NCBI GenBank assembly: GCA_007376135.1
Contig: VMFR01000003.1
Span: forward strand, 11,660 to 75,659
DNA from: Parcubacteria group bacterium Gr01-1014_31
GTDB taxonomy: Bacteria; Patescibacteriota; Patescibacteriia; Buchananbacterales; GWA2-38-13
Length of the DNA stretch: 64,000 nucleotides
Direction of reading: 5' to 3'
Below the pieces are notes generated by a model that had not been told where the DNA came from, ran no database searches, and worked only from the letters and a program-made list of their open reading frames with translations. Numbering within the stretch: position 1 is the stretch's first letter; every line of letters starts with the position of its first letter. Of this stretch, positions 4,828 to 62,275 are shown one piece after another. The position numbers and the translations under genes are program-made.

Positions 4828-6252
4828 ATGCCGCACACCATTCTGCGCCAGCGGTGGGTCGTCTGGGGACTCTTGGCAGCCGGGTTTGCCACAGTGGCAG
4901 GCTACCACGCCGTACTTCCCATTGATGTTGATGAAACCTGGGTGCTGACGGTCGGCTGGCAGATCACCCAGGGCGTGGACCCGCTCCGCGATCTGTATGA
5001 ATTTCATACGCCCGGCGCATTCTACCTGGCCGCCGCGATCATCAAAATGTTCGGCGCCAGCGTTTGGCCGTTGCGGCTCGTGGTGACGCTGTTGACCGCG
5101 GCAACGGCCTGGCCGCTGTGGCGCCTGGCGCAACTATTGGGATTGCGGGGTTGGCAGCCGCCGGCGGTGGTGGCGACGTGGATTTTGCTGCTCACTATGT
5201 TCCCGTGGATCAACCCCAACCACCTGGCCCAGCTGGGTGGTATCTGGGCGGCGTGGGCGCTGGTCTTTGCCTGGCAGAAGCGGCGGCTGCGCTGGTTTGT
5301 TCTGGCGGGCGCGATTGCCGGGCTTGCCGTGTGGCTGTTGCAGACCCGCGGAGGCGCCCTGGTGTTGGCGGGCGTGGTAATTGCCCTCACGGCCCGTCGG
5401 CTTTGGCCGTTGGTGGCATACCTTGCCGGGGTCGGGGTGGTTTGGCTGCCATTCCTGTTGTGGCCGCCCGCGCTGCTCTGGCATAGTCTGGTCACGCTGC
5501 CGACGACCCAGTACCTGCCGTCCCAGTTCGTCGGCGTGCAGCTGGTGGTCATTACGGTCGGATTCCTCACTGTTCTCGCGCTGCTGGCATTGGCCGTGCA
5601 TGCCGCGCCGTCCGGATTTTGGCCGCTCTGGGCAGTCGCGCTTGTTCTGGCGGCAAGCATCTGGTCGCGCGCCGAAATTGCCTACTGGTCAACGATCGCC
5701 TGGCCGCTGTCGGTGCTGTTTTTTTCGCTGCTGTCGTGCCCCTGGCCCCGGCTGTCTGGCCGTCCACGGCAGACGGTGCGTGCCGTCATGTGGTACGGCG
5801 GCGCGCTGCTCGCGGCGCAGGTGTTTGGTTGGGCGGCGATCAACGGCGCGTCGCGCGTCGCGATGGCCATTTCCGACCGGCGCGCAGGGCGCGGCGACCT
5901 GTGGCAGGGGATCGGGGCAGCGGTAACGGCGCGGACGTTGCCGGGGGAGGAGATTTTTGCCCTGCCGTATCTGCCGGGGGCATATTTTTTCAGCCAGCGG
6001 CCGAACGCCACGCCGTACAATACGCTGCTGTCCAATTTTCACCCGCCCGAAATCCTCGCGGACGCGATTTCGCGGCTGGAGCGGGTCAAGCCGAAAGTGG
6101 TGGTGCGGGCACGCGACAGTTTCGCCGTTCGGCGAGGTTTTCATCAGGACGGCACCGCGCTGGACGCGTACCTGGATGACCATTACCGCGTGGCGCAAGA
6201 CTCGGTGGCCGGGTATGTGGTGGAAATTTTGGAGCGTCGGCCTGGGTTATGA
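4828..6252 (+). CDS. GT-C fold glycosyltransferase paralog 2 (DE motif intact)
   Basis: 'DVDETWVLTVGWQ' plus 'EFHTPGAFY..FGASVWPLRLVVTLLTAAT' align with the PMT_2 motif region. C-terminal domain 'SQRPNATPYN ... DAYLDDHYRV'. Starts 5 nt after the paralog 1 stop. Confidence 0.65.
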   Translation: MPHTILRQRWVVWGLLAAGFATVAGYHAVLPIDVDETWVLTVGWQITQGVDPLRDLYEFHTPGAFYLAAAIIKMFGASVWPLRLVVTLLTAATAWPLWRLAQLLGLRGWQPPAVVATWILLLTMFPWINPNHLAQLGGIWAAWALVFAWQKRRLRWFVLAGAIAGLAVWLLQTRGGALVLAGVVIALTARRLWPLVAYLAGVGVVWLPFLLWPPALLWHSLVTLPTTQYLPSQFVGVQLVVITVGFLTVLALLALAVHAAPSGFWPLWAVALVLAASIWSRAEIAYWSTIAWPLSVLFFSLLSCPWPRLSGRPRQTVRAVMWYGGALLAAQVFGWAAINGASRVAMAISDRRAGRGDLWQGIGAAVTARTLPGEEIFALPYLPGAYFFSQRPNATPYNTLLSNFHPPEILADAISRLERVKPKVVVRARDSFAVRRGFHQDGTALDAYLDDHYRVAQDSVAGYVVEILERRPGL

Positions 6253-7682
6253 ACGAGGAATTGCCGACATCTCGCTGGGGGCTGGGCGCCCGTGCCACGG
6301 TGGTCGCGGTGCTGGCAGCGGTTGCCTTCATCCGGTGGTACGTCGGAATCGATCCGGATGCGGGATTGACGATGACGGCCGCCTGGCAGGTGAGCCAGGG
6401 ATTGGTGCCGTACCGGGATTTTTTCGAATTCCATCCCCCCGGCGCATTTTATGCGCTGGCCGGCGTTTTTCAGATCTTTGGCTCCACCTACGTCGTCGCC
6501 AAACTGTTCTCGATGCTCGTTCTGGCCCTTGGCGCGGTGGGAGTGGATCGCTGCGCGCGGCGGCTGTTGCTGCGTCCGTGGCATCGCGTTGCCGCTTTGG
6601 CGGTGTGGGGGCTGCTGGCGCTGCAGTTTCCACTGGTGAGCTATAGTACATACGCGCACGTCGGTAGCATCTGGGTCGCGTGGCTTTTGGTGCGGCTCCA
6701 TCAGCGCAGCGCTCAAGGGTGGGAGGCGCTCGCCGGGTTTGCCGTCCTCGGAGCGAGCGCGGCGGGGGTGGGGTGGCTTTTGCAGACGCGCGGTGCGGCA
6801 TTGTTCCTGGTCGGGCTGGGTGTTGCCGCGGCGTCGCGCCGCTGGCAGCTGGTCGCAGCGTACCTGGGAGGATCGGGGGTGGCGCTGCTGCCCGGCCTCG
6901 CGCTTCCGCTGCGGGAATTTTGGCAGCAAACGGTCGTCTATCCCGCTGCCCACTACCCGGCCATCAACACCGACCAGCCATTGTGGCTGGTGCTCTGGGG
7001 TGGCGTCATCGTGACGCTGGGCATAGTCGCATACTGGGCGCGATCCTCGTGGCGCGGATTTTGGCCGTTGTGGTGGACGGCCCTCGCGCTCTTGGTCAGC
7101 ATCTGGCCGCACGCGAACGGGGTGTACCTCTCGATGGTGCTGTGGCCCTTGGCGCTGTTGTTCACCGCCGCGGTGCCGCCGCCGTCGGCCATGGCGTGGC
7201 GACGGCTCTGGCAGGGGGTAGCTGCGGCATCCGGAGCTTTTGCCGGCGCGCTGGCCTTGATGACCGTCGGCGTTTTTTTTACCCTGTTCCCCGGCGCGCG
7301 CGCCGCCGACCCCTGGGGCGCGCGGGCGCCCTTCTGGGAGGATCTGGCCGTTGAGGTGCGGATGCGGACGCAGCAGAACGAACCCATCTTTGCCACGCCC
7401 ACGCTACCCAATCTTTATTTTTTCGCGCAGCGTCCGAATGCCACGCGGTATAATTCCCTGTTCAGCGGTCAGTACGACGCTCCGTATTTCTTGCAAGCGG
7501 TCGTCGATCTGGAGCAGCGCCGTCCTCGATACGTCGTGCGCGAGCTGGACAGCTTGGCGGTGCAACTGGGTTACCACCGTGACGGCACCCAGGTGGATGT
7601 GTATCTGGATGAGCACTACCGCGTGGCCGCCGAGCTGACGAAGTTTCTGCCGCGGCGGTTGCAGCTCTTGGAGCGGCGATAG
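6249..7682 (+). CDS. GT-C fold glycosyltransferase paralog 3 (DA variant)
   Basis: ATGA start/stop overlap with paralog 2. 'DPDAGLTMTAAWQVSQG...EFHPPGAFY'. C-terminal 'AQRPNATRYN ... DVYLDEHYRV'. Confidence 0.65.
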   Translation: MNEELPTSRWGLGARATVVAVLAAVAFIRWYVGIDPDAGLTMTAAWQVSQGLVPYRDFFEFHPPGAFYALAGVFQIFGSTYVVAKLFSMLVLALGAVGVDRCARRLLLRPWHRVAALAVWGLLALQFPLVSYSTYAHVGSIWVAWLLVRLHQRSAQGWEALAGFAVLGASAAGVGWLLQTRGAALFLVGLGVAAASRRWQLVAAYLGGSGVALLPGLALPLREFWQQTVVYPAAHYPAINTDQPLWLVLWGGVIVTLGIVAYWARSSWRGFWPLWWTALALLVSIWPHANGVYLSMVLWPLALLFTAAVPPPSAMAWRRLWQGVAAASGAFAGALALMTVGVFFTLFPGARAADPWGARAPFWEDLAVEVRMRTQQNEPIFATPTLPNLYFFAQRPNATRYNSLFSGQYDAPYFLQAVVDLEQRRPRYVVRELDSLAVQLGYHRDGTQVDVYLDEHYRVAAELTKFLPRRLQLLERR

Positions 7683-7689
7683 CATCCGT

Positions 7690-9114
7690 ATGACGTGGTA
7701 CCCCCTCCCTCGTTCCCGCTGGACGCCTCCCGCGATTGCGGGGCTTGTGTTGGCGCTGCTGGTGGTGCGCTGGTATCCGGACCCCGCCAGCGACGAAACA
7801 TTGACGCTGACCATCGCCTGGCAGGTCAGCCAGGGGCTTGGGCTCTACCGCGATGTCTTTGAATTCCATCCGCCCGGTACGTTCTATTTCTTTGGCGCGC
7901 TGTTCCGGGTGTTCGGCCCGTCGTATCTGGCGGCGAAGATCGCGATCGTACTCCTGACCGCGGCAACCGGTTTTGCCCTCGATGTGCTAGTTCGCCGCTT
8001 CACCTCCCGCGGACTACCGCGGGTCACCGTGCTGGCGGGGTGGCTGCTGTTGGTCTGGCAATTTCCGGCGATCGGCTACCATTCCTTGGCGCACCTGGCC
8101 AGCATTTGGGTTGCGCTCTTTTTGGTTCTGGCGTCCGTTGAGCGGCGTACCGGCTGGGCTTTGGCCTGCGGTCTCGCGACGGCCGCTGCGGGCTGGTATA
8201 TGCAACCCTACGGCGTGGTCCTGGCGGCGGTGGGCGTTGGCAGCATGCTCGCGACGCGGCAGCTGCGGCTGGCGTTCGCTTACGTTGCCGCGCTCGCGAT
8301 CGCGCTGCTGCCGTTGCTGGCCTGGCCTTTGCCGCTGCTGTGGCAGCATCTGGTGCGATTCCCGCTGACGTACTACGCGCCCGCGAACCTTTCCCAAGGC
8401 AGTCCGGCAGGGTTGTTCGTCCTGGTCGCGGTGGTTCTCATGGTCGGCGCTGCGGCTGTCTTCAGTCGGCGGGTGCCATCCGGGTTTTGGCCGTTATGGT
8501 TCATGTCGCTGGTCCTGCCGCTCACCGTGTGGCCGCACTCGCAGGTCGGCTACCTGGCGAGTGTTGCCTGGCCGTTGCTTTTGCTGCTCGTGGTAACACC
8601 GCCGGGTGGGGGAGCGATGCGGGAGCAGATCTCGGCCATCGTCGGGCAAAGCCTTCGGTTTGTGGCCGTGGTCGGCGGCATCGCAGCGGCAGTCGTTTCG
8701 GTCGGATTTTTTTCCGTGCGTTGGCCGCTCCATGACGAGTTCGGTCTGCGCGTGCCGTTCTGGGACGACCTTGGAACTGCGGTGCAGGCCCGCACGAGGA
8801 CGAATGAACCGATCTTTGCCGTGCCGTACTTGCCGGCGATATATTTTTTTGCCCAGCGGCCCAATGCCACCCGGCACAACTCGCTGCAGACCGCGTTCCA
8901 TCCGCCGTACGTCTTGGATGAGATCATCACCGATCTGGAGCGCACCAAGCCGCGGGTGGTCATCCGCGAGTATGCCAGCTGGCTCGCGCGATTGGGGCAG
9001 TACGACGAGGGCAACCGCGTTGACGCCTACCTGGATATGCACTATCGGTTCAGTGAGGAGCTGACGCAGTTTGCCCCGCGGCGGATCCAGCTGTGGGAAC
9101 GACGCGTTCCGTAG
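7690..9114 (+). CDS. GT-C fold glycosyltransferase paralog 4 (DE intact)
   Basis: 'ASDETLTLTIAWQVSQG...EFHPPGTFYFF'. C-terminal 'AQRPNATRHN ... DAYLDMHYRF'. Confidence 0.65.
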   Translation: MTWYPLPRSRWTPPAIAGLVLALLVVRWYPDPASDETLTLTIAWQVSQGLGLYRDVFEFHPPGTFYFFGALFRVFGPSYLAAKIAIVLLTAATGFALDVLVRRFTSRGLPRVTVLAGWLLLVWQFPAIGYHSLAHLASIWVALFLVLASVERRTGWALACGLATAAAGWYMQPYGVVLAAVGVGSMLATRQLRLAFAYVAALAIALLPLLAWPLPLLWQHLVRFPLTYYAPANLSQGSPAGLFVLVAVVLMVGAAAVFSRRVPSGFWPLWFMSLVLPLTVWPHSQVGYLASVAWPLLLLLVVTPPGGGAMREQISAIVGQSLRFVAVVGGIAAAVVSVGFFSVRWPLHDEFGLRVPFWDDLGTAVQARTRTNEPIFAVPYLPAIYFFAQRPNATRHNSLQTAFHPPYVLDEIITDLERTKPRVVIREYASWLARLGQYDEGNRVDAYLDMHYRFSEELTQFAPRRIQLWERRVP

Positions 9115-9118
9115 TCGT

Positions 9119-9234
9119 CTATGCCCCGTAGGACAACGGAATGGCGGGGAAAATAGATATTAGACGGGGGAGAAGCTATTATGTACGCCATCACATGAGC
9201 ATTACACATTTGACCGTTGTCCTGCGGGGTAGGC
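9119..9234 (+). repeat. Start-codon-enclosing inverted-repeat element, copy A (between GT-C paralogs 4 and 5; degenerate distal ATG)
   Basis: Inverted repeats ctatgccccgtaggacaacgg and ccgttgtcctgcggggtaggc (ATG changed to AGG); begins 5 nt after the paralog 4 stop. Confidence 0.7.
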
Positions 9235-10628
9235 TGCAAGACCTTCCCCGTATCGTTGCCTCGCGGTGGTGGCCGTTCGTCTACTGGCCGGCATTGTTGC
9301 TCCTCGCGATTTTTTTGAAATGGGGCCACCTGGTCAACCAGGATGAGGGGTTAACGCTGGCCGGTGCGTGGCAGGTTAGCCTTGGGTTGCAGCCATATCG
9401 TGATTTTTACGATTTCATCACGCCGGGCTCTCATTATCTTTTGGCGGGCGTCTTTCGCATGTTCGGTTCGACGTACGTCGTGGCGAAGGTCTTTTCATTG
9501 TTCCTCCTTCTGCTCTCCCTATACGGCGTGCGACGGATCACGGTGCGGTTCGCCTCCGGACCATGGTCGTGGTGGCCGTCGCTGCTGTGGCTCTTGCTGT
9601 CCGATCACTATGTGCTGATCAATCACAACACGTACGCGCTGGTGGCGGCGGTCTGGGCGATCGAGCGCGCGTTGGCGGCAGCCGGCAAGACCGCGGCGCG
9701 ATGGCCGTCCTGGCTGGTCGCGGGGTTGCTGGCCGGCGCGACCGTGATGCTGCACCAGGCGCGGGGAGCAGCCGTGGTCGCGGCCGTGCTGTGGCTCGCG
9801 CTGACCTTCGGGGTTGTCCCGGCTCTTGCCGTCATCGGGGGAGTGGCACTTGCGCTCCTGCCGCTGTTGGCATGGCCGTTGCCGCTCCTGCTGCAATCAT
9901 TGGTTGCCTTTCCTTTCGTCCAATATCTCCCGTTCAACCGGACCGGGATGACGCTGTTGGGCGCTTTGGTCGGCGTATATCTCGGGGTGGTGTTGCTTTC
10001 CCCATCACGCTGGCGAGACCGCCGCTGGGTATTTCTCTGGGGCAGCGGGGTTTTGCTGTTGGCGAGTAACTTCAGCCAAGCCGACCGTTTTCACCTGCTG
10101 CCGGCGATGTTTCCCATCGGCGCGCTGATCGCAACGGTCGCCATCCAGCGGCGTTCGCGCTGGCCGGCGTTGATGGCCGCTTCCGGCACGGCGGTATTGG
10201 CGGTAATCTCCATCGGCTTTACGGCACACCGCATTGCCAGCGTCGGCGTCAGGCCGTTCCTTCAGCTGCGCGACCCCCAGCTGGAGCAGCTGGTTTCCCG
10301 CATACAGCAAACCGTCGCGCCCCAGCAGCCGATCTTCGCCGCTCCGTTCCTGCCCAATCTTTATTTTGAAACTCAGCGCCGTAATCCGACGCGGTTCAAC
10401 GTGCTGATCTATCGGCACCATCCTTCGGCGTTCTTTGCGGCAGCGCGTGCCAGCCTGGAAGCCGACCCACCGCCCGTCATTCTCCTGAACTACTACACGA
10501 CGCCCGAAGGGTTTGCGACATTCCTGCTGGGCAACCCGGTCACTGACTATATCCGCCAGTACTACCGATACGCGGAAACCGTGAATAACATCCAGATCTA
10601 CCGCCGCACGGTCCCTCCGACACTATGA
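9141..10628 (+). CDS. GT-C fold glycosyltransferase paralog 5 (DE intact; start uncertain because it lies inside the repeat element)
   Basis: 'NQDEGLTLAGAWQVSLG...DFITPGSHY'. C-terminal 'TQRRNPTRFN'. The first in-frame ATGs (9141, 9195) lie inside the 9119-9234 inverted-repeat element, whose distal repeat has lost the ATG. Confidence 0.6.
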   Translation: MAGKIDIRRGRSYYVRHHMSITHLTVVLRGRLQDLPRIVASRWWPFVYWPALLLLAIFLKWGHLVNQDEGLTLAGAWQVSLGLQPYRDFYDFITPGSHYLLAGVFRMFGSTYVVAKVFSLFLLLLSLYGVRRITVRFASGPWSWWPSLLWLLLSDHYVLINHNTYALVAAVWAIERALAAAGKTAARWPSWLVAGLLAGATVMLHQARGAAVVAAVLWLALTFGVVPALAVIGGVALALLPLLAWPLPLLLQSLVAFPFVQYLPFNRTGMTLLGALVGVYLGVVLLSPSRWRDRRWVFLWGSGVLLLASNFSQADRFHLLPAMFPIGALIATVAIQRRSRWPALMAASGTAVLAVISIGFTAHRIASVGVRPFLQLRDPQLEQLVSRIQQTVAPQQPIFAAPFLPNLYFETQRRNPTRFNVLIYRHHPSAFFAAARASLEADPPPVILLNYYTTPEGFATFLLGNPVTDYIRQYYRYAETVNNIQIYRRTVPPTL

Positions 10629-12073
10629 AATTTCATTGGGCCAAAATGTTTTTGCGGTCACCGTGGATTTGGGCAGTGTTTGGGTTGACGGTTTTCGGCA
10701 TGGCGCTGCGATGGCTGGGATTGGGACGCGAGTCGCTGTGGATGGACGAGCTGCAGACTTTGCGCGCCGCTCTTCTGCCGTGGGGGGAGCTGGTCATGGA
10801 ACGCCTGTCGGCCGGCCACGCGCCGCTATATTTCCTCTTGATGAAGCCGTGGATAGCTGTCTTTGGTGCGTCGGAAACGGCGCTGCGGTTGCCGTCGTTG
10901 CTGTTGGGAACAGCGACCATCCCGCTGACCTATCTGTTGGGCCGGCAGGCAGTCTCCCGCACGGTCGGTCTGTTCGCGGCATGCGGGATAACAGTCTCGG
11001 CCATCAACATCGAGTACGCGCAGGAGGCACGGCCATATACGCTGCTCACGCTGTTGGTGTTGCTCTCCGCCCTGGGGGCGGTGAAGTTGCATTCCTCGTT
11101 GGGTCGGCAAGGCTGGGGGTTGGCGTGCGTTGGGTTGATCGCCGGCATCTACACGCATTCCTATTTTCTCTTCTTTGCATTGGTCATCGTGGGCTGGCTG
11201 CTGTGGTCGAGTCGGGGGACGGCGGCCGTGGGACGGGTCTGGTCGCTCGCGCTCACGGTCGGCATGGCCGCGCTGCCGTGGGTCGCTGCCGTCACTTGGC
11301 AGCAGCTGCGCCCGCAGCCGGGCAATCCGGTCTTCTTCCTTTCCCAGCAGCAGTGGACCCTCTGGGACGCCGCCGTCAATTTCTTGGTCCGGACGCGGGC
11401 GGCCACCTACTGGCCCGAACCGTCGTATCTGGCGGTCTTTCCAACCGCTCTGCTGTTGGGTGTGGCGATCCTTCCGGTCGTACGGTGGGTTCGCCGGGGC
11501 GTTACGGATCAGAAGACCCCGATCGTCCTGCTCTACGGTTTGGTAGTCATCCCGGTGCTTTTGCCGTGGCTCTGGTCGCAGGCAGGTACGAATATCTTCG
11601 GCATCCATTATCTGCTGCCGGTGACGCCGGCATTGTATGCGGTGGTTGCCGTCGGCGCGGTCAGCACATGGGAAATGCTGCCGTGGCGCCAAAGGCCGAT
11701 CGTTCTGGCGATCGCCGTTGCGGCGTTCATCCCGCTACAGTCCGGGAGTTTGGCGGTCGCGTACCTCGTGCACCATAAGCCGCCGTGGCGCGAGGTGGAC
11801 GGTTATCTCCGGCGTAACGTCGGTGGGGAAGACGCGGTCGTGCTCATCGGCCCGGCCGCCGAGGCAACTCCGGTACTGGCGCACTACGCGCGCGGAGCCT
11901 ATGCGGTGCAGCCTGCGCCGACCGCCGATGTCCGCGAGGCCGCGCGGCTCTGGATGATCGGCTATGGACCCCAGGCGATGGCGCGCTCCCTTCAGTCCCT
12001 GGCGACGGTTTTGCAACCGTTCGCAACCGTGCGGATAGATCGCATCGGCATCATCGGGCTGGAGCGCCGTTGA
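10625..12073 (+). CDS. Glycosyltransferase family 39/83-like (PMT_2, ArnT/PMT-type) membrane protein
   Basis: Canonical PMT_2 N-terminal signature 'SLWMDELQTLRAAL...HAPLYFLLMKPWIAVFGASETALRLPSLLLGTATIPLTYLLGRQ'. ATGA overlap with paralog 5. Lacks the C-terminal domain shared by paralogs 1-5. Confidence 0.75.
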   Translation: MKFHWAKMFLRSPWIWAVFGLTVFGMALRWLGLGRESLWMDELQTLRAALLPWGELVMERLSAGHAPLYFLLMKPWIAVFGASETALRLPSLLLGTATIPLTYLLGRQAVSRTVGLFAACGITVSAINIEYAQEARPYTLLTLLVLLSALGAVKLHSSLGRQGWGLACVGLIAGIYTHSYFLFFALVIVGWLLWSSRGTAAVGRVWSLALTVGMAALPWVAAVTWQQLRPQPGNPVFFLSQQQWTLWDAAVNFLVRTRAATYWPEPSYLAVFPTALLLGVAILPVVRWVRRGVTDQKTPIVLLYGLVVIPVLLPWLWSQAGTNIFGIHYLLPVTPALYAVVAVGAVSTWEMLPWRQRPIVLAIAVAAFIPLQSGSLAVAYLVHHKPPWREVDGYLRRNVGGEDAVVLIGPAAEATPVLAHYARGAYAVQPAPTADVREAARLWMIGYGPQAMARSLQSLATVLQPFATVRIDRIGIIGLERR

Positions 12074-28526: not shown

Positions 28527-28620
28527 AGTATTGACTTCAGACTAGCGGAGTCGGCAGCCTTACACAAGGGGAAACTATCAACTCAGCATACCCCGCAACC
28601 CTCGGCGGTACAAAGGCAAT

Positions 28621-28968: not shown

Positions 28969-30180
28969 TCAACGCGGGTCGGCCAGGAGCTGCGACAGCA
29001 GCTGGTTGCGTTCCTTCATGGAGCGGGCGTGGAGGACCACCGCGATGGTTTCGCCGCGCCGGACGGCGACGGTGCGCTGGGCCTCAATGAGAAAACCGGA
29101 TTTGGCGCCGTCGGGGCCGAAACGCAGCAACGTAGCGTTGCGGTTGACGACCGGGATGTCGCGGGCGGTGCCATCCGGCCGACGGGCGGCGATGGTGAAT
29201 TGTCCCATGACCGACGTGCGAGCGATCTCGGGCTGGCTGAAAGCCGCCGCCGCCAGGCGCGCCATTTCGGCGGCCGTGGAAACATTGTAGGGATCCAAAC
29301 CGCTGGGGTCGGTGAAGCGGGTGCGGGTCAGGCCGAGCGCGTTGGCTTTGGTGTTCATCGCGGCCACGAATTCGCGTTCGGTCAAGCTGCTGGCGCCTGC
29401 CAGCATTCCGGCCGCTTGGTTGGAGGAGGCCACCAGCATCGCTCGCCACAGGTCGCGCACCGTCACGCGGTCGCCGGACGTGAACGGCACCTCGCTGGTG
29501 ACGTCGCCGGGGTCGACGTACAGCTGCGGATAGGCGAGGGCGTCGGCGGTGATGGGGACGACCTGGTCCCAATCGGGGTCGTGGTCGAGCAGTACCATCG
29601 CTGTCATCAGCTTGGTCAGCGACGCGATGGGCAGGATCTCATCGGCGCGGGTGCCATCGGCGATCTGGCCATCCTCAAGCCGGGCGGCGGCCACGCCGTT
29701 GAACGCGGGGTCAAAGGTGATCTGCCGCGTGTTCATCGGCACCTGGGCGAGGTCGGCGGTTTTCACCCCCAGGTGCGCGCGCAGCACGGCCGTCCAGCAG
29801 GATTCGGGGTCGTTCAAGGGAGTTGCCCGGCTGTCCAGCGGGCTGACGAAGTACAGCCGGCCGCGTTGTTCGGTCGCCAGCAGAAAGCGGCCCGACAACC
29901 GGCGGGCGAGTCCGCGGTCGCCGCCGCGCTTTCCGGCGGCGGGGAGTTTGTTCAGGTCCGCGGTGCGGATGCCCAGGGCAAGTTGCGGGGCCAGCTCCCA
30001 GCAGCCGCCGGGGTTCTGCAGAAAGTAACGTTTTCCGTCCCCCGGGTTGACGTACCAGGCTTGGCCGCGCTGGTCAGTCTGGAGCAAGACCCGGCCCGCG
30101 GCGCGTTGGGTTAACGGCGGCGCGGCGGCCAGCAACGGCAGCGGGATGATGAAGAGTCCGAGGAGAAAGAATTTGCGCAT
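28969..30180 (-). CDS. D-alanyl-D-alanine carboxypeptidase (S11, PBP5/DacB-like) with two N-terminal approximately 55-aa tandem repeats
   Basis: SxxK 'SLTK', SxN 'SSN', KTG-like region; signal peptide; repeats 'LLxTxQRGxxxYVxPxDxxxxxLxxPxxCW...TADL'. Confidence 0.8.
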   Translation of the reverse strand: MRKFFLLGLFIIPLPLLAAAPPLTQRAAGRVLLQTDQRGQAWYVNPGDGKRYFLQNPGGCWELAPQLALGIRTADLNKLPAAGKRGGDRGLARRLSGRFLLATEQRGRLYFVSPLDSRATPLNDPESCWTAVLRAHLGVKTADLAQVPMNTRQITFDPAFNGVAAARLEDGQIADGTRADEILPIASLTKLMTAMVLLDHDPDWDQVVPITADALAYPQLYVDPGDVTSEVPFTSGDRVTVRDLWRAMLVASSNQAAGMLAGASSLTEREFVAAMNTKANALGLTRTRFTDPSGLDPYNVSTAAEMARLAAAAFSQPEIARTSVMGQFTIAARRPDGTARDIPVVNRNATLLRFGPDGAKSGFLIEAQRTVAVRRGETIAVVLHARSMKERNQLLSQLLADPR

Positions 30181-30288
30181 ACCCGGTAGGACAACAGTCA
30201 AATATGGTGGTTTCCTCGTAACAATTGAGAGTGTACTTGCCCTGACGCAGACTTTTCCCCGCCCGTCCGTTGTACTACCGGGCATACG
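30177..30288 (-). repeat. Start-codon-enclosing inverted-repeat element, copy B (upstream of dacB-like gene)
   Basis: Terminal inverted repeats gcatacccggtaggacaacag and ccgttgtactaccgggcatacg. Fills the entire intergenic space between the M23 stop (30289) and the dacB ATG (30180, inside the repeat). Confidence 0.7.
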
Positions 30289-34650: not shown

Positions 34651-35715
34651 TTAGCCAACACTGCTCGATGGTCGTTGGCCGGCGGTTTTGTCGCGGAATT
34701 CCTGCTGGTAGATCTCCAGCAAAGCGAGGAAGACGCTCAGAATGATCGGGCCGGCCACAAATCCGACCACGCCAAAGACCTGCAGTCCGCCCAGTACCGA
34801 CACCAGCACGAGCAGGGGGTTGATCCTAACTCGCGAGCCGATGAACTCGGGGTTGAGCAAGTTGTCGATGAGGCCGACGACCAACACACCCCAGAGTGTC
34901 AGTCCGATGGCCGTACCCGTATGACCGCCAACGAAAAGGTAGATCACCGCAGGAACGATGACGGTCGCCGTGCCGAGCCACGGCACGAACGAAATAGGCA
35001 CGGTCACCATGCCCCAGAGCACCGCGCCCGGGACCCCGAACATCAGAAATCCGACGCCGGTCAGCACGCCTTGGATGACGGCCAGGAGCAGCGCGCCGAG
35101 GATGACCGAGGTGACCATCAATCGCACGCGCGCGATGATCTTGGCATCATAGTGGTTGGGCAGCGGCGACAGCTGGGCGAAAAGTTTTGGCAGCTTATCT
35201 CCCTCTTTGAAGAAGTAGTACAGGCCGTAGAGGAACACCACGATGTGAATGAAGGTGCCCGCGACGCTCGACAGGATGCCGGCGGCATGGCTGATGAAGA
35301 AACGGAGCGCCTGCCCGATGTACTCATCGACGTTGAGCGCCGCCGGGTCGAACGACGGGCTGATTTTGCCGAAGAAATTTTCAGGCAGGTCGATCAGCTG
35401 CTGCAGGACGCGGTCGAAGAGCCCACCTTGCTGCAGCCGTATGACGAACTGCTGGGCTTCCAGGACAGCGGTCGCCGTCAGCGCAAAAATCGGCAGCAGC
35501 ACCCCGGACAGCACAATGAGCATGCTGACGAACGCCGCGATGGTCCCGTGCCCAAGCCATACCCGCAGCCGCCGATGCAGCGGCCAAAAGATGATGGCCA
35601 GCGTCGCCGCAAACAGCAGCGGGGTCAGGTAGGGCCGAAACAGCCTCGCCACCAGCGCAAATGCGACGGCGAGGAGGCCGAAGAAAAAGACGTTCTGAAA
35701 ATGACGTTGTTGCAT
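34651..35715 (-). CDS. AI-2E family (PerM/TqsA-like) transporter
   Basis: Eight TM helices, characteristic Gly-rich C-terminal helices 'GGLQVFGVVGFVAGPIILSV'. Confidence 0.8.
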   Translation of the reverse strand: MQQRHFQNVFFFGLLAVAFALVARLFRPYLTPLLFAATLAIIFWPLHRRLRVWLGHGTIAAFVSMLIVLSGVLLPIFALTATAVLEAQQFVIRLQQGGLFDRVLQQLIDLPENFFGKISPSFDPAALNVDEYIGQALRFFISHAAGILSSVAGTFIHIVVFLYGLYYFFKEGDKLPKLFAQLSPLPNHYDAKIIARVRLMVTSVILGALLLAVIQGVLTGVGFLMFGVPGAVLWGMVTVPISFVPWLGTATVIVPAVIYLFVGGHTGTAIGLTLWGVLVVGLIDNLLNPEFIGSRVRINPLLVLVSVLGGLQVFGVVGFVAGPIILSVFLALLEIYQQEFRDKTAGQRPSSSVG

Positions 35716-35823
35716 ACCCGGTAGTACAACGGTCGGGCAAGAGTTGCGTTACGACTTAATAAATATTGAATCGCTGCCTAATATCCTTCGGCCGCATGGG
35801 CCCGTTGTCCTACCGAGCATACC
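35712..35823 (-). repeat. Start-codon-enclosing inverted-repeat element, copy C (upstream of AI-2E transporter gene)
   Basis: Inverted repeats gcatacccggtagtacaacgg and ccgttgtcctaccgagcatacc; the gene ATG (35715) lies inside the first repeat. Confidence 0.7.
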
Positions 35824-35873
35824 CTCATTGTACGCTTCCTAGCCATTTTTTGCTACTAGGGAGGTTTTTGCCC

Positions 35874-36951: not shown

Positions 36952-37986
36952 TTATACAATCAGCATCGCGTCGCCGTAGGAATAGAAGCGATAGCCCGCA
37001 GCGATTGCCTCCTGGTAGGCCGCCAGCACCAGGTCGCGTCCGCCAAATGCGCATACCAGCAGCAGCAAGCTGGAGCGGGGGAGATGAAAATTGGTGACCA
37101 ACCCATCAACGGCCTGGAAACGGAAGCCGGGCGTGATGAAGAGGGTCGTTTCCCCACCGCCGGCGGAAACCATGCCGCGGTGGTCAAGGGCGGATTGTTC
37201 CAGCGTGCGCACTGTCGTGGTGCCGACCGCCACGACCCGGCCTCCGCGCCGGCGGCAAGCATTGATGGCCGCGGCCGCCGGGGGCGTTATCGCGTAGCGT
37301 TCGGCGTGCAATTGGCCGGTCTGCAGTTGCCGAGGGCGCAGTGGCTGGAACGTGCCTAGCCCGACGTGGAGGGTAACCGCCGTTGATGCGATGCCGCGCT
37401 GGCGCAGCGCAGCAAGCAGCGCCGGGGTGAAATGCAGTCCGGCGGTCGGTGCGGCCACCGCCCCCGGATTTTTTGCGAACATCGTTTGGTAGTTGACGCG
37501 GTCGGCCGGAAAATCCTCGCGTCCCAGGTAGGGCGGCAGCGGCACATGGCCGGCCTCGTCCAAAATTTTTTCCAGTGGGACATCGGTCTGCAGGGCGACG
37601 GTCGCCAGTCCTTCCGGATGCTTGGCGGTGATAGTGACACGCAGTTCCTTGGATACCGTCAGCGTCTCCCCAACGCGGCATTTGCTGGCGGGCTTGAGCA
37701 ATGCCTCCCACGAACCCGGGGCCAACTCCCGGTGGAGCAGCAGTTCCACGGCGCCACCCGACGCGCGGATAGCCCGCAGCCGCGCCCAGATGACCTTGGT
37801 GTCGTTGACAACCAAGCAGTCGGCGGGCGCCAGGAGGGCCGGCAGGTCGGCAAAGGTTCGGTGCTGCCACGATTGCGTCCGCCGGTCGATGACCAGCAGC
37901 CGTTCGGTGCCGCGCGCGAGGGGTTCCCGCGCGATCAATGACGGCGGCAGCCGGAAGTCGTACGATTGCAGATCGGCAGGCAGCAT
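36952..37986 (-). CDS. queA: S-adenosylmethionine:tRNA ribosyltransferase-isomerase
   Basis: 'LSDFDFELPEELIA'-like N-terminus ('LQSYDFRLPPSLIAREP'), conserved 'VAVGTTTVRTLE'. Confidence 0.9.
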   Translation of the reverse strand: MLPADLQSYDFRLPPSLIAREPLARGTERLLVIDRRTQSWQHRTFADLPALLAPADCLVVNDTKVIWARLRAIRASGGAVELLLHRELAPGSWEALLKPASKCRVGETLTVSKELRVTITAKHPEGLATVALQTDVPLEKILDEAGHVPLPPYLGREDFPADRVNYQTMFAKNPGAVAAPTAGLHFTPALLAALRQRGIASTAVTLHVGLGTFQPLRPRQLQTGQLHAERYAITPPAAAAINACRRRGGRVVAVGTTTVRTLEQSALDHRGMVSAGGGETTLFITPGFRFQAVDGLVTNFHLPRSSLLLLVCAFGGRDLVLAAYQEAIAAGYRFYSYGDAMLIV

Positions 37987-38092
37987 ACCCCGTAGGACAA
38001 CGGTTAAACGTATGGTCTTCGTGTTACGACGTAAAAAGTATCTGTGCCGCCGTTTCTTTTCCATCCCCAGCCCGTTGTACTACGGGGCATAG
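37983..38092 (-). repeat. Start-codon-enclosing inverted-repeat element, copy D (upstream of queA)
   Basis: Inverted repeats gcataccccgtaggacaacgg and ccgttgtactacggggcatag; the queA ATG (37986) lies inside the repeat. The ORF track artificially extends queA through the element as '...LTVVLRGM'. Confidence 0.7.
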
Positions 38093-55593: not shown

Positions 55594-55626
55594 CCGCAAT
55601 CCGCGCGGCACCTACCGCACCTTCGT

Positions 55627-55660
55627 CCACCTGTTCCTCGTCTGGAGCAGGTGGTTTTTT
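55627..55660 (+). terminator. Intrinsic terminator
   Basis: ccacctgttcc-tcgtctg-gagcaggtgg followed by tttttt. Confidence 0.8.
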
Positions 55661-55754
55661 AATTGTTCCTCCAAATTTTGTTGCGAAATTTGGTTAGGAA
55701 CAATTAACCCACCGAAAGTCAGCCGAATAGACTATGGAAATATACGGACCAGCC

Positions 55755-55885
55755 GCAGGCGGTTGACCCCGTTAGACAACCTTTTTGCTAATTATCTTGT
55801 GCCTGTAGCTAGTGCAGGTACTACTTTAGTGCGTCTTTTAACAATAATCCCATGGTTGTCTAACGGGGTTGACCGCGCCCGCCTG
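55755..55885. repeat. Approximately 130-bp AT-rich element bounded by 15-bp perfect inverted repeats
   Basis: ccccgttagacaacc ... ggttgtctaacgggg flanking a low-GC core; sits in a long non-coding spacer. Confidence 0.5.
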
Positions 55886-56188
55886 ACATGGCTAGGCACC
55901 TTATGTATCCGCGGACTGTAGGTGGGTTGGTACCTTAATTTTCCGCAGTCCCCCTACGGGGGATCACCCGAAGGGTGGCAAGGGAACCAGCGAAGAGACA
56001 GGGAAAGCAAACCAAAAACGGCCCATCGGGCCGCTTGGTTTCTTGTGTTCTCCGTGTGCAGCCGGGGCGCGTGCGGCGCACGTACCGTTGCATTACCTTC
56101 GAGACCGTGCTAGCATCACCGCTGGCTCGGGAGCATGGTGCGACCGAGCGAGCCGGTCTTTCCAATGAAAACAACGGAGGTTCTTTTC

Positions 56189-61941: not shown

Positions 61942-62013
61942 GGTGGCTAACGGGAATCGAACCCGTGCTAAAGGCGCCACAGGCCTCTGTGCTACCTCTA
62001 CACCATAGCCACC
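61942..62013 (-). tRNA. tRNA-His (anticodon GTG) with encoded G-1
   Basis: Manual cloverleaf: acceptor GTGGCTA/TAGCCAC with extra 5' G opposite discriminator C; anticodon loop CTGTGGC; T-arm ACGGG-TTCGATT-CCCGT. Followed (minus sense) by a hairpin/T-run terminator. Confidence 0.8.
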
Positions 62014-62204: not shown

Positions 62205-62275
62205 TCCCCCCGGAGAGAATCGAACTCCCATACCCGGCTTAGAAGTCCGGCGTTCTTCCATTAAACTACGGGGGG
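62205..62275 (-). tRNA. tRNA-Arg (anticodon TCT)
   Basis: Manual cloverleaf: acceptor CCCCCCG/CGGGGGG, D-arm GTTT-AATGGAA-GAAC, anticodon loop CTTCTAA, T-arm GGGAG-TTCGATT-CTCTC, discriminator A. Confidence 0.75.

What the first reader, a model, noticed from the sequence alone, without database searches (positions are those of the whole stretch)
37983..38092. Four copies of an approximately 112-nt element whose terminal inverted repeats enclose the downstream gene's AUG in a roughly 19-20 bp stem
Elements at 9119-9234 (+), 30177-30288 (-), 35712-35823 (-) and 37983-38092 (-) share 21-nt terminal inverted repeats (gene-sense 5' CTATGCCCCGTAGGACAACGG ... CCGTTGTCCTACGGGGTATGC 3') and a partly conserved core (GGCGGGGAAAAG ... 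ACGA-GA-ACCA-TA-TTT). All four sit in the same orientation immediately upstream of a gene. In three copies the gene's ATG is the ATG inside the distal repeat (dacB-like 30180, AI-2E transporter 35715, queA 37986). As RNA, the two repeats pair perfectly with one G-U, so the AUG and the G-rich stretch just 5' of it are buried in a long helix. This resembles a translational riboregulator or thermosensor, or a MITE that donates a start codon. Copy A (9119-9234) has lost the distal ATG (AGG), and its gene uses upstream in-frame ATGs inside the element core. Gene callers mis-extend the N-termini through the element, giving the recurring 'LTVVLRGM' artefact in the ORF track. Partial homologs of the repeat (gcataccccg) occur near 28563 and 31486.
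Basis: seen in the sequence. Interest (0 to 1): 0.85.

Follow-up and report, generated by a model that had tools for sequence, protein, structure and literature searches.

The report
Mobile hairpin elements at start codons
The four hairpin repeats are stripped-down copies of a small mobile DNA element, widespread in ultra-small (CPR/Patescibacteria) bacteria, that sits exactly on a gene's start codon with the ATG duplicated; its full-length form uses the first ATG to express its own nuclease. I found no description of this kind of selfish DNA.

Summary
Each copy reads YATG | CCCSGTAGKACAAC… loop …GTTGTMCTACSGGG | YATG. The window comes from a Parcubacteria (CPR) MAG.

The same arms occur in many CPR phyla. 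In 48 of 55 short copies the 3' ATG is the native start codon of a host gene, for example rpsL, GAPDH or L27.

Longer versions (~300-350 bp) carry a ~95-aa GIY-YIG nuclease of the Slx1/UPF0213 type between the same arms. Its ORF starts at the 5' ATG and reads through the 5' arm (MPGSTT…). It usually stops 6-9 nt before the host ATG.

A sister genome has an empty site at the AI-2E gene (…GAGGG CATG CAAC…), against TATG-element-TATG here. That is a clean 105-bp indel. Arms-only mini-hairpins carry 4-5-bp target duplications of varied sequence.

The window copies are therefore MITE-like, ORF-less relatives of a start-codon-occupying mobile element. They are not a dedicated riboregulator or thermosensor. 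Stem covariation shows no strand bias, the stems are far too stable, and Rfam has no match.

The burial of the AUG in RNA is a by-product of the arms. The host gene is probably translated by termination-reinitiation. I found no published description.

The parts
37984..38091 (-). Copy D, the finding's own copy. 5' TATG 38091-38088; 5' arm CCCCGTAGTACAACGG 38087-38072; 68-nt interior; 3' arm CCGTTGTCCTACGGGG 38003-37988; 3' TATG 37987-37984, whose ATG (37986-37984) is the queA start.
   Evidence: 108 bits; an identical copy at the same site in the sister MAG; the site is empty in more distant relatives L118, L119 and L120
38103..38131 (-). Sigma-70-type promoter of queA: TTGACA (38131-38126), 17-nt spacer, TACGAT (38108-38103), then 12 nt to the A of the 5' ATG. 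It lies upstream of the element, so the whole element is transcribed at the 5' end of the mRNA.
   Evidence: element-free orthologue L118 has the same layout, TTGACA-17-TACCAT-12-ATG; consensus reading only, not tested
36952..37986 (-). queA (344 aa), starting at the 3' ATG of copy D.
   Evidence: 100% identical NCBI protein of 344 aa, Parcubacteria group bacterium
35713..35821 (-). Copy C. TATG 35821-35818; 5' arm 35817-35802; 3' arm 35732-35717; TATG 35716-35713. The ATG at 35715 is the start of the AI-2E transporter gene (34651-35715). A -10 box TACAAT at 35832-35827 lies 6 nt before the 5' ATG, a leaderless-type layout.
   Evidence: empty site in sister MAG L116/L117, a clean 105-bp indel
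30178..30286 (-). Copy B. TATG 30286-30283; 5' arm 30282-30267; 3' arm 30197-30182; TATG 30181-30178. The ATG at 30180 is the start of a Peptidase_S11 (dacB-like) gene (28969-30180). The 5' ATG lies 3 nt after the stop codon of the upstream gene. It is in frame with the gene and no stop intervenes, so a 35-codon extension is possible.
9120..9233 (+). Copy A. TATG 9120-9123; 5' arm 9124-9139; 3' arm 9214-9229; degenerate 3' flank TAGG 9230-9233. The native start codon has mutated to AGG. In-frame ATGs inside the element (9141, 9195) could now serve as starts.
   Evidence: (AGG aligns with the Met of four paralogues)
55763..55872 (.). Fifth copy, from a sister subfamily. TTGA | CCCCGTTAGACAACC … GGTTGTCTAACGGGG | TTGA. 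Intergenic, not at a start codon; interior 38% GC in a 62% GC genome.
   Evidence: a relative of the same subfamily in L120 is flanked by TCTA/TCTA

Best explanation
The four ~105-bp elements are non-autonomous, ORF-less copies (MITE-like) of a mobile element that is widespread in Patescibacteria/CPR.

**Full-length form.** The full form (~300-350 bp) carries a ~95-aa single-domain GIY-YIG nuclease of the Slx1/UPF0213 type between the same 16-22-bp inverted arms.

**Insertion.** The element integrates with a 3-5-bp target duplication. The copies that persist sit overwhelmingly on (Y)ATG start codons, and full-length copies are in sense orientation.

**Consequences of the ATG duplication.**
- The upstream ATG keeps the host's promoter, leaderless transcription start or SD. 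It becomes the start of the nuclease ORF, whose first codons (MPGSTT…) are the 5' arm.
- The downstream ATG stays the host gene's start.
- Host translation then most likely depends on ribosomes that translate the element ORF, or its remnant mini-ORF. They melt the arm-arm hairpin, terminate a few nucleotides upstream and reinitiate.

**Shown:** the anatomy, the distribution, the coincidence with start codons, shared ends with nuclease-bearing copies, presence/absence polymorphism, and target duplications.

**Inferred:** that the nuclease mobilises the arms (perhaps by cutting the hairpin or cruciform they form), that the 5' ATG is used, and that the host gene is expressed by reinitiation.
For: **1. 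Family and distribution.** A scan of one genome per species found paired copies in about 45 loci, essentially all CPR MAGs. The hits in other phyla were single arms. The window itself is from a Parcubacteria MAG.

**2. Start codon.** In 48 of 55 short copies the 3' ATG opens an ORF of at least 80 codons; the other two frames reach that in 1 and 6 of 55. The N-termini are native ones: rpsL MPTVNQLIRKGR, GAPDH MAKVAINGFGRIG, L27, L9, FtsA, Tmk, MiaB.

**3. Autonomous form.**
- L086, L094, L114 and L115 carry a GIY-YIG ORF (Pfam E 2e-16) between the same arms, starting at the 5' ATG.
- 56 of 88 protein homologues begin MP[GS][ST]T…, the arm-encoded peptide.
- In a protein-anchored metagenome set, which has no bias on the flanks, 67 of 80 loci are open in frame from the flank ATG through the arm.
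- Of 52 distinct loci in that set, 50 have ATG right after the 3' arm and 47 open a long host ORF.
- The distance from nuclease stop to host ATG is 6-9 nt in 31 of 50 and 15-33 nt in 18.
- The catalytic Y, Y-G, R and E are invariant.

**4. Mobility.**
- There is a clean 105-bp presence/absence difference at the AI-2E start between the window and its sister MAG. Outgroups are also empty.
- Insertions are nested or tandem in L067 and L078.
- Arms-only mini-hairpins carry 4-5-bp direct repeats of varied sequence: CAAG, CTTA, CAAA, CGATG, CGAA.
- Non-ATG duplications also occur: TATA, CATA, TTGA, TCTA.

**5. Host signals lie before the 5' ATG.** -10-like hexamers peak 6-9 nt upstream of it. They occur there in 19 of 51 short and 15 of 52 full-length copies, against 3-5 at control offsets and 13.9% for crude control ORFs.

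**6. Deletion derivatives.** Some short copies keep the nuclease's C-terminal codons (L021: arm + KKTTGGRTFLAQRLRAYLFG* + arm; also L051, L075).

**7. Nuclease fold.** The predicted structure matches UPF0213 and Slx1, a nuclease specific for branched DNA, and not I-TevI. The arm-encoded N-terminus is disordered.
Against: - No GIY-YIG gene lies in the 64-kb window.
- The family HMM finds no significant coding remnant in the four window copies. Their link to the nuclease-bearing form therefore rests on shared arms and flanks, not on interior homology.
- Nothing shows that the nuclease moves the element. No prokaryotic transposon with a GIY-YIG enzyme is known to me.
- In short copies the mini-ORF stops 6-130 nt before the host ATG, or runs past it. 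Tight coupling is therefore evident only for full-length copies.
- The genome scan pattern included YAT, which biases the flanks in that set. The protein-anchored set removes that bias only for full-length copies.
- Orientation of short copies is hard to define because the arms are nearly symmetric. One copy with a recognisable remnant (L021) is in the opposite orientation and is not at a start codon.
- It is unresolved whether the enrichment at start codons reflects targeting or selection.
Confidence: 0.8

Rival explanations
1. The elements are primarily cis-acting RNA regulators (riboregulator or thermosensor), selected because the long helix sequesters the AUG and opens on a signal.
For: The sense-strand RNA folds into a 19-21-bp helix that contains the AUG. 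Its MFE is -42 to -49 kcal/mol, about 10 kcal/mol better than antisense. The stem covaries (93% of cells paired, 9 pairs with double changes, 0 of 500 shuffles reach this). The queA copy is unchanged between two genomes that differ in the neighbouring promoter spacer.
Against: - The sense advantage comes only from the duplicated YAUG flanks. Inside the arms there are 17 G.U cells against 16 A.C cells, so there is no strand bias.
- Such stable stems would not melt at physiological temperatures.
- The same arms bracket a nuclease gene, where they lie about 300 nt apart, and also occur as bare 31-nt mobile hairpins.
- The host genes are functionally unrelated.
- A sister genome does without the AI-2E copy.
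- No Rfam match.
- The queA region is 97% identical overall, so 0 changes in 104 nt is only weakly notable.
Confidence: 0.07
2. The arms belong to an ordinary MITE mobilised by a conventional transposase (DDE or HUH/RAYT-type) encoded elsewhere. The GIY-YIG gene is a passenger homing-endonuclease gene that invaded the loop of some copies.
For: The window has copies but no nuclease gene. Bare mini-hairpins move without any ORF. GIY-YIG enzymes are not known transposases (my knowledge; the Slx1-like cluster was regarded as non-selfish in PMC1564403). GTAG inside the arm recalls GTAG-tagged REPs.
Against: - The association is tight and reciprocal. 56 of 88 homologues start with the arm-encoded peptide.
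- 67 of 80 protein-anchored loci have the ORF in frame with the arm, where about one third would be expected by chance.
- The stop codon is positioned 6-9 nt before the host ATG.
- The arms covary with nuclease subfamilies (MPGSTT, MPSTTT, MPGRTI).
- I did not come across a candidate transposase next to copies in the loci I looked at, but I made no systematic search.
Confidence: 0.12
3. The element spreads by classical homing: the nuclease cuts the empty allele, and the break is repaired from a filled allele. It does not transpose, and each insertion is inherited or exchanged only between homologous loci.
For: The nuclease has a GIY-YIG fold. Orthologous insertions are shared between related genomes (GAPDH in L082 and L097; queA in the window and L116).
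Against: - Dozens of unrelated host genes carry it.
- Target duplications have varied sequence.
- Insertions are nested or tandem.
- The protein is a bare ~95-aa catalytic domain with no DNA-binding module. It resembles Slx1/UPF0213 rather than I-TevI (Foldseek E 1.3).
Confidence: 0.08
4. The short copies have been domesticated. They form a 5'-terminal hairpin on leaderless or short-leader mRNAs that protects the transcript or sets the translation rate, and selection keeps them.
For: -10 boxes lie 6-9 nt before the 5' ATG in about a third of copies, so the hairpin would sit at the very 5' end of the mRNA. Copies persist at essential genes (rpsL, GAPDH, L27). 5'-terminal stem-loops are known mRNA stabilisers (general knowledge, e.g. 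ompA).
Against: There is presence/absence polymorphism between close relatives. Copy A has decayed, losing its ATG. There is no strand-specific covariation. Persistence is also expected for a neutral insertion that is hard to lose.
Confidence: 0.15

Closest known systems
Bacterial MITEs that are co-transcribed with genes, e.g. Correia/NEMIS elements of Neisseria and ERIC/IRU of enterobacteria
   Same: They are about 100-150 bp long, with terminal inverted repeats, short target duplications and many copies next to genes. They are transcribed as long hairpins that can affect expression. They are non-autonomous.
   Different: The arm sequence is unrelated. Correia duplicates TA and has no known cognate enzyme (my knowledge). 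The present copies sit exactly on the start codon with ATG duplicated. They share ends with a nuclease-bearing form and are confined to CPR bacteria.
Free-standing and intron-encoded GIY-YIG homing endonuclease genes (I-TevI, T4 seg/mobE)
   Same: A small selfish cassette whose only product is a GIY-YIG nuclease, inserted so that the host gene still works.
   Different: The nuclease is a bare Slx1/UPF0213-type domain with no DNA-binding module. The element has inverted arms and target duplications and occupies many unrelated genes. The host gene is preserved by start-codon duplication, not by splicing or intergenic placement.
Bacterial Slx1-like / UPF0213 proteins (BH0048 1zg2, EF2693 1ywl) and eukaryotic Slx1
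   Same: These are the best sequence and fold matches: phmmer E 1e-6, and Foldseek top hits with rmsd 2-3 Å to Slx1 over about 72 residues. They share the minimal GIY-YIG domain.
   Different: Those proteins are treated as repair or structure-specific nucleases that are vertically inherited (PMC1564403). Here the gene is embedded between mobile inverted arms, borrows the host's start codon, and has a conserved basic C-terminal motif, YLKTTGGRRFLAKRL.
REP/REPIN elements with RAYT transposases, and IS200/IS605-derived palindromic elements
   Same: Short mobile hairpins. The hairpin rather than a long terminal repeat is the recognisable unit. GTAG is present in the arm. Bare 31-nt hairpin forms exist.
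   Different: No Y1/HUH transposase was seen. To my knowledge those elements do not duplicate the target. Here there are 3-5-bp direct repeats of varied sequence.
Rickettsia palindromic elements (RPEs)
   Same: Palindromic ~100-150-bp selfish repeats tolerated inside expressed genes of reduced genomes. Copy B here is in frame and stop-free, and mini-hairpins are inserted in frame inside nuclease ORFs.
   Different: RPEs insert within coding regions as extra peptide segments (my knowledge). These sit at the start codon and mostly are not in frame.

Membership tests
MITE (miniature inverted-repeat transposable element) | Small (under ~500 bp), no functional transposase ORF | tested here: met
   104-114 bp. 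Mini-ORFs of 11-28 codons only, except for the in-frame read-through in copy B.
MITE (miniature inverted-repeat transposable element) | Terminal inverted repeats | tested here: met
   16-nt arms, extended to 18-22 nt in relatives. 93% of cells are paired across 36 copies.
MITE (miniature inverted-repeat transposable element) | Target-site duplication and presence/absence polymorphism | tested here: met
   Filled site TATG…TATG against empty site CATG in the sister MAG, a 105-bp indel. Other duplications: TTGA, TCTA, TATA, CAAG, CTTA, CAAA.
MITE (miniature inverted-repeat transposable element) | Multiple copies per genome | tested here: met
   4 + 1 copies in 64 kb. Several copies per MAG elsewhere. 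Whole-genome counts could not be made.
MITE (miniature inverted-repeat transposable element) | Shares ends with an autonomous element that encodes the mobilising enzyme | tested here: inconclusive
   The same arms bracket a GIY-YIG nuclease ORF in more than 50 distinct loci. It has not been shown that this nuclease is the mobilising enzyme, and no such copy lies in the window.
RNA thermometer / translational riboregulator | Start codon or SD sequestered in a helix | tested here: met
   The AUG lies in the basal 4 bp of the predicted helix in B, C and D.
RNA thermometer / translational riboregulator | Marginally stable helix that opens in the physiological range | tested here: not met
   MFE -42.4 to -49.1 kcal/mol, with 19-21 bp.
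RNA thermometer / translational riboregulator | Covariation specific to the transcribed strand (G.U tolerated, A.C not) | tested here: not met
   17 G.U cells against 16 A.C cells inside the arms.
RNA thermometer / translational riboregulator | Match to a curated RNA family | tested here: not met
   No Rfam hit at gathering scores. There are only far-sub-threshold miRNA-hairpin look-alikes.
GIY-YIG homing endonuclease gene | GIY-YIG catalytic domain with conserved active-site residues | tested here: met
   Met for the full-length relatives only: PF01541 E 2e-16, with invariant Y14, Y25-G27, R35 and E59. No such gene is in the window.
GIY-YIG homing endonuclease gene | Attached DNA-binding module and one long cognate target (homing between alleles) | tested here: not met
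   Single-domain proteins of 86-119 aa. Dozens of unrelated host genes. The fold is nearer to Slx1 than to I-TevI.
REP/REPIN (RAYT-mobilised) | Hairpin repeats associated with a Y1 (RAYT) transposase, without target duplication | tested here: not met
   Direct repeats flank the copies. I did not come across a RAYT in the loci I looked at, but I made no dedicated search for one.
Correia/NEMIS | Characteristic 26-bp TIR and TA duplication | tested here: not met
   The arm sequence CCCSGTAGKACAAC and the YATG flanks differ. The Correia consensus is recalled from memory.

The most novel reading that the evidence does not exclude
This is a previously unrecognised class of prokaryotic mobile element. 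It is a hairpin-ended transposon whose only protein is an Slx1-like GIY-YIG structure-specific nuclease. It integrates at translation or transcription start points (YATG, often the +1 of leaderless genes). It borrows the host start codon and promoter for its own nuclease and hands the host gene a duplicated ATG, which is reached by reinitiation. Its ORF-less derivatives and bare 31-nt hairpins populate CPR genomes.
Probability: 0.45. Interest if true: 0.9.

Novelty: new variant of a known kind. Interest (0 to 1): 0.8.

Why it matters
**A new way for selfish DNA to persist.** If the reading holds, it shows how selfish DNA can live in very compact genomes. The element sits on the start codon, duplicates it, and lives off the host gene's own expression signals without knocking the gene out.

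**A new role for a nuclease family.** It would give a mobile-element role to the bacterial Slx1-like GIY-YIG proteins (UPF0213), which have been treated as repair enzymes. It would also add a nuclease class to the enzymes that move prokaryotic DNA.

**Practical consequences for CPR genomics.**
- Gene starts next to these repeats are easily mis-called.
- The repeats mark transcription and translation start points in organisms that cannot be cultured.
- Presence/absence of copies is a fine-scale strain marker.

**An open question made testable.** How a ribosome reaches an AUG locked in a 20-bp helix, with no SD, behind a leaderless 5' AUG, can be tested directly with reporter constructs.

Tried and rejected
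**RNA families.** Rfam at gathering thresholds, and at E up to 1 on the element and on the fifth copy, gave nothing usable.

**Phage carriage.** A scan of viral contigs gave 8 single-arm chance hits and no paired copy.

**Nuclease gene in the window.** A tblastn search with four family members found none.

**Coding remnants in the window copies.** The family HMM gave nothing significant, with E above 1. Copy C (MLGRTTGPCGRRILGSDSIFIKS*) resembles the nuclease C-terminus by eye only.

**Extra copies near 28563 and 31486.** Rejected.

**attC site of an integron.** I considered this because GTTAGAC/GTCTAAC in the fifth copy fit GTTRRRY/RYYYAAC. I rejected it because the boxes are in the reverse order relative to attC, as I recall that architecture.

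**Constraint on the queA copy.** The element is identical between two genomes. I rejected this as strong evidence of constraint because the whole region is 97% identical.

**Tight stop-start coupling in the short copies.** Not found; the distances are 6-130 nt.

**Enrichment at leaderless genes.** The result is suggestive only (37% against 13.9%), because the control gene starts are crude.

**Literature.** Eight full-text searches combined CPR/Patescibacteria, GIY-YIG, MITE, start codon, UPF0213 and transposase. None found a description of the element. The library does not hold most subscription-journal papers.
Full report
**Observation**

The four elements are in the sequence as described.
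- The 21-nt arm pattern finds 5 sites at up to 3 mismatches, against 0.01 expected.
- A 14-nt core finds 10 sites, against 1.09 expected. That is two arms for each of five elements.
- I built a covariance model from the four copies and four relatives and ran it over the whole window without filters.
- It returns the four copies at 9120-9233 (+), 30178-30286 (-), 35713-35821 (-) and 37984-38091 (-), with 82-108 bits.
Nothing else scores below E 0.1.
- The 'partial homologs' near 28563 and 31486 are not there. One 10-mer at 28586 is at chance level.

**Anatomy**

Read in gene sense, each copy is YATG | CCCSGTAGKACAACGG – 68-78 nt interior – CCGTTGTMCTACSGGG | YATG.
- The outer four bases are a direct repeat, not an inverted one.
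- As RNA the sense strand folds into a 19-21-bp helix, with MFE -42.4 to -49.1 kcal/mol and z -2.8 to -4.8.
- This is about 10 kcal/mol better than the antisense strand.
- That advantage comes from the two UAUG flanks, which pair through G.U.
- Copies B, C and D have a 1x1 mismatch in the middle of the stem.
- The interiors are weakly similar to one another, and only in the co-oriented sense (A-D 34 against 11 reversed; C-D 29 against 14).
- The interiors are 45-51% GC in a 62% GC genome.

**Where the window comes from**

- QueA is 100% identical to a protein of a 'Parcubacteria group bacterium Gr01…' MAG.
- Part of the window, including copies B, C and D, also lies on a contig of a metagenome assembly.
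- Public gene calls there start queA, the AI-2E transporter gene and the Peptidase_S11 gene at the 3' ATG.
- Only the mechanical ORF list runs upstream through the element.
- In copy A the 3' ATG has become AGG. This codon aligns with the initiator Met of four neighbouring paralogues, so the native start was lost after insertion.

**Distribution**

- I scanned one genome per species with GTTGTMCTACSGGGYAT.
- Paired arms 80-210 bp apart occur in about 45 of these loci.
- They come from Uhrbacteria, Saccharibacteria, Parcubacteria, Paceibacterota, Moraniibacteriota, Kaiserbacteria, Kerfeldbacteria and unclassified small genomes.
- Hits in other phyla are single arms and look like chance.
- Two MAGs labelled Bdellovibrionales and Gammaproteobacteria also carry pairs.
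- The 'Gammaproteobacteria' MAG is syntenic with the window and is probably mislabelled.
- No paired copy lies in viral contigs.

**Start codons**

- I oriented the copies by their flanks. The 3' ATG then opens an ORF of at least 80 codons in 48 of 55 short copies.
- The other two frames reach that in 1 and 6 of 55.
- The N-termini are the native ones of conserved proteins: rpsL MPTVNQLIRKGR, GAPDH MAKVAINGFGRIG, L27 MAHKKAQGS, and L9, FtsA, Tmk, MiaB and BipA.
- The exceptions lie just upstream of an SD or a -10 box (L021, L028, L085).
- Caveat: the scan pattern contained YAT, so the flanks in this set are partly pre-selected.

**The full-length form**

- Longer copies (L086, L094) carry an ORF for a GIY-YIG nuclease between the same arms (PF01541, E 2e-16).
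- The ORF starts at the 5' flank ATG and reads through the arm: ATG CCC GGT AGT ACA ACT TCG = MPGSTTS….
- Of 88 homologues in the protein collection, 56 begin with this arm-encoded peptide. Those that carry a taxon name are from Patescibacteria or unclassified bacteria.
- Two further genomic contexts show the host gene (Wzy_C, peptide deformylase) starting at the 3' ATG.
- I then used a protein alignment to fetch 80 metagenome loci. This route puts no constraint on the flanks.
- In 67 of these loci the ORF is open in frame from the flank ATG through the 5' arm, and 65 have the 3' arm.
- Of 52 distinct loci, 50 have ATG directly after the 3' arm and 47 open a long host ORF.
- The nuclease stop codon lies 6-9 nt before the host ATG in 31 of 50 and 15-33 nt before it in 18. 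It is often inside the 3' arm (…TCG AAG TTG TAG TACTGGGT ATG).
- Some loci use an internal ATG instead.
- The catalytic residues are invariant.
- The nearest solved relatives are UPF0213 proteins (1zg2, E 1e-6; 1ywl) and Slx1.
- The predicted fold (pLDDT 86) matches Slx1 at 2-3 Å and not I-TevI. The arm-encoded first ten residues are disordered.
- A 2006 survey placed these bacterial Slx1-like proteins outside the selfish branches of the superfamily (PMC1564403).

**Evidence of mobility**

- The sister MAG E14_metabat.bin.16 has 87% QueA identity and is syntenic. It carries the queA copy but not the AI-2E copy.
- The empty site reads …GTACAATGAGGG CATG CAACC…. The window reads …GTACAATGAGGG TATG[element]TATG CAACA…. 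This is a clean 105-bp indel.
- More distant relatives are empty at both genes. The insertions are therefore derived.
- L067 shows a short copy inserted at the 3' ATG of an older, decayed nuclease-bearing copy. L078 has a tandem pair.
- Arms joined by a 3-10-nt loop (31-38 nt) occur as separate insertions.
- These carry 4-5-bp direct repeats of varied sequence: CAAG, CTTA, CAAA, CGATG, CGAA. Some lie in frame inside nuclease ORFs.
- The fifth window copy (TTGA/TTGA) and a relative in L120 (TCTA/TCTA) belong to a sister subfamily (CCCCGTTAGACAA…) that sits in intergenic DNA.
- L021 keeps the last 20 codons of the nuclease between the arms. It is flanked by CATA/CATA, that is, it is inserted the other way round at a non-start site.
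- L051 and L075 keep similar remnants.
- The window copies have none that the HMM can detect.

**Host signals**

- -10-like hexamers peak 6-9 nt upstream of the A of the 5' ATG.
- They occur there in 19 of 51 short and 15 of 52 full-length copies, against 3-5 at control offsets.
- A crude set of 404 control ORFs gives 13.9%.
- SD-like motifs are rare (3 of 51).
- In the window, queA has TTGACA-17-TACGAT-12-ATG and the AI-2E gene has TACAAT-6-ATG. Both lie upstream of the 5' ATG, and their element-free orthologues have the same layout.
- Many transcripts should therefore begin at or just before the 5' AUG and carry the whole element.

**RNA or DNA?**

- Across 36 copies the 22-pair stem is 93% paired and 9 pairs change on both sides. 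None of 500 shuffles reaches this.
- But inside the arms there are 17 G.U cells against 16 A.C cells. The pairing is no better on the transcribed strand than on its complement.
- This fits a DNA hairpin or cruciform, or two ends read by the same protein, as well as it fits an RNA.
- One stem position is mismatched in 22 of 36 copies.

**How it most likely works**

*Shown:* an element with inverted arms integrates with a short target duplication. The surviving copies sit on start codons. The full-length form places its nuclease ORF behind the upstream ATG and ends it just before the downstream ATG.

*Inferred:*
- The nuclease, being Slx1-like, recognises the structure formed by the arms and mobilises them.
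- The element depends on landing behind an expressed ATG to make its nuclease. Together with selection against disruptive insertions in compact genomes, this would explain the start-codon bias.
- Direct targeting of the YA at transcription start points is an alternative that I cannot exclude.
- Ribosomes starting at the 5' AUG melt the hairpin, terminate and reinitiate at the host AUG.

In the short window copies the mini-ORFs are MPRSTTGWGW…* in D (stop 17 nt before the ATG) and MLGRTTGPCG…* in C (33 nt before). Copy B reads through in frame for 35 codons, and copy A stops early.

**Comparison and novelty**

- The short copies meet the descriptive criteria of a MITE.
- They fail the tests for an RNA thermometer, a classical homing endonuclease gene, Correia elements and REP/RAYT elements.
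- Eight literature searches found no description of the element. The library does not hold most subscription-journal papers.
- I therefore rate it a new variant of a known kind (mobile inverted-repeat element). It has a real chance of being a new class, if the GIY-YIG nuclease proves to be the mobilising enzyme.

Noticed in passing
window 55763-55872: A fifth hairpin element of a sister subfamily (arms CCCCGTTAGACAACC / GGTTGTCTAACGGGG). It is flanked by TTGA/TTGA, is intergenic, and has a 38% GC interior in a 62% GC genome. A relative in L120:5107-5218 is flanked by TCTA/TCTA.
   Followed up: partly
window 55660-55716: An AT-rich inverted repeat, TAATTGTTCCTCCAAATTT…AAATTTGGTTAGGAACAATTA, lies just after the ORF ending near 55600. 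It could be a terminator or another small palindromic insert.
   Followed up: no
window 55940-56040: A GC-rich stretch with several short hairpins (CCCCCTACGGGGG, GGCCCATCGGGCC) overlaps the start of the 55975 ORF. It has no Rfam match at E up to 1.
   Followed up: partly
window 4828-12073: Five tandem paralogous ORFs of about 475 aa with no Pfam match and similar N-termini (M..LPRSRW…). Copy A sits at the start of the fourth.
   Followed up: partly
window 61942-62012 and 62205-62275 (-): Two tRNA genes. These are the only Rfam hits at gathering score in the window.
   Followed up: no
L101:5840-5870, L151:1461-1498, L177:1524-1555, L198:1504-1540, L130:827-857: Bare 31-38-nt hairpins made of the two arms only, flanked by 4-5-bp direct repeats of varied sequence. 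Some are inserted in frame inside nuclease ORFs, where they produce the extra 'SNPALQPSCSNRA' segment of some proteins.
   Followed up: partly
L067:6480-6970; L078 (tandem pair): Nested and tandem insertions. In L067 a short copy is inserted at the 3' ATG of an older, decayed nuclease-bearing copy in front of rpmA. This suggests that the element's own GGG-YATG end is a preferred target.
   Followed up: partly
CPR loci L063, L070, L074, L080, L082, L095, L097 and window 35827-35832: Strong -10 boxes (TATAAT, TAAAAT) lie 6-9 nt before the ATG, and SD-like motifs are scarce. This points to frequent leaderless or near-leaderless genes in these CPR lineages.
   Followed up: partly
L084, L118 (assembly CAYJVS): A MAG labelled 'uncultured Gammaproteobacteria bacterium' carries the element and is syntenic with the Parcubacteria window (bipA-queA-…-AI-2E). 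The taxonomic label looks wrong.
   Followed up: no
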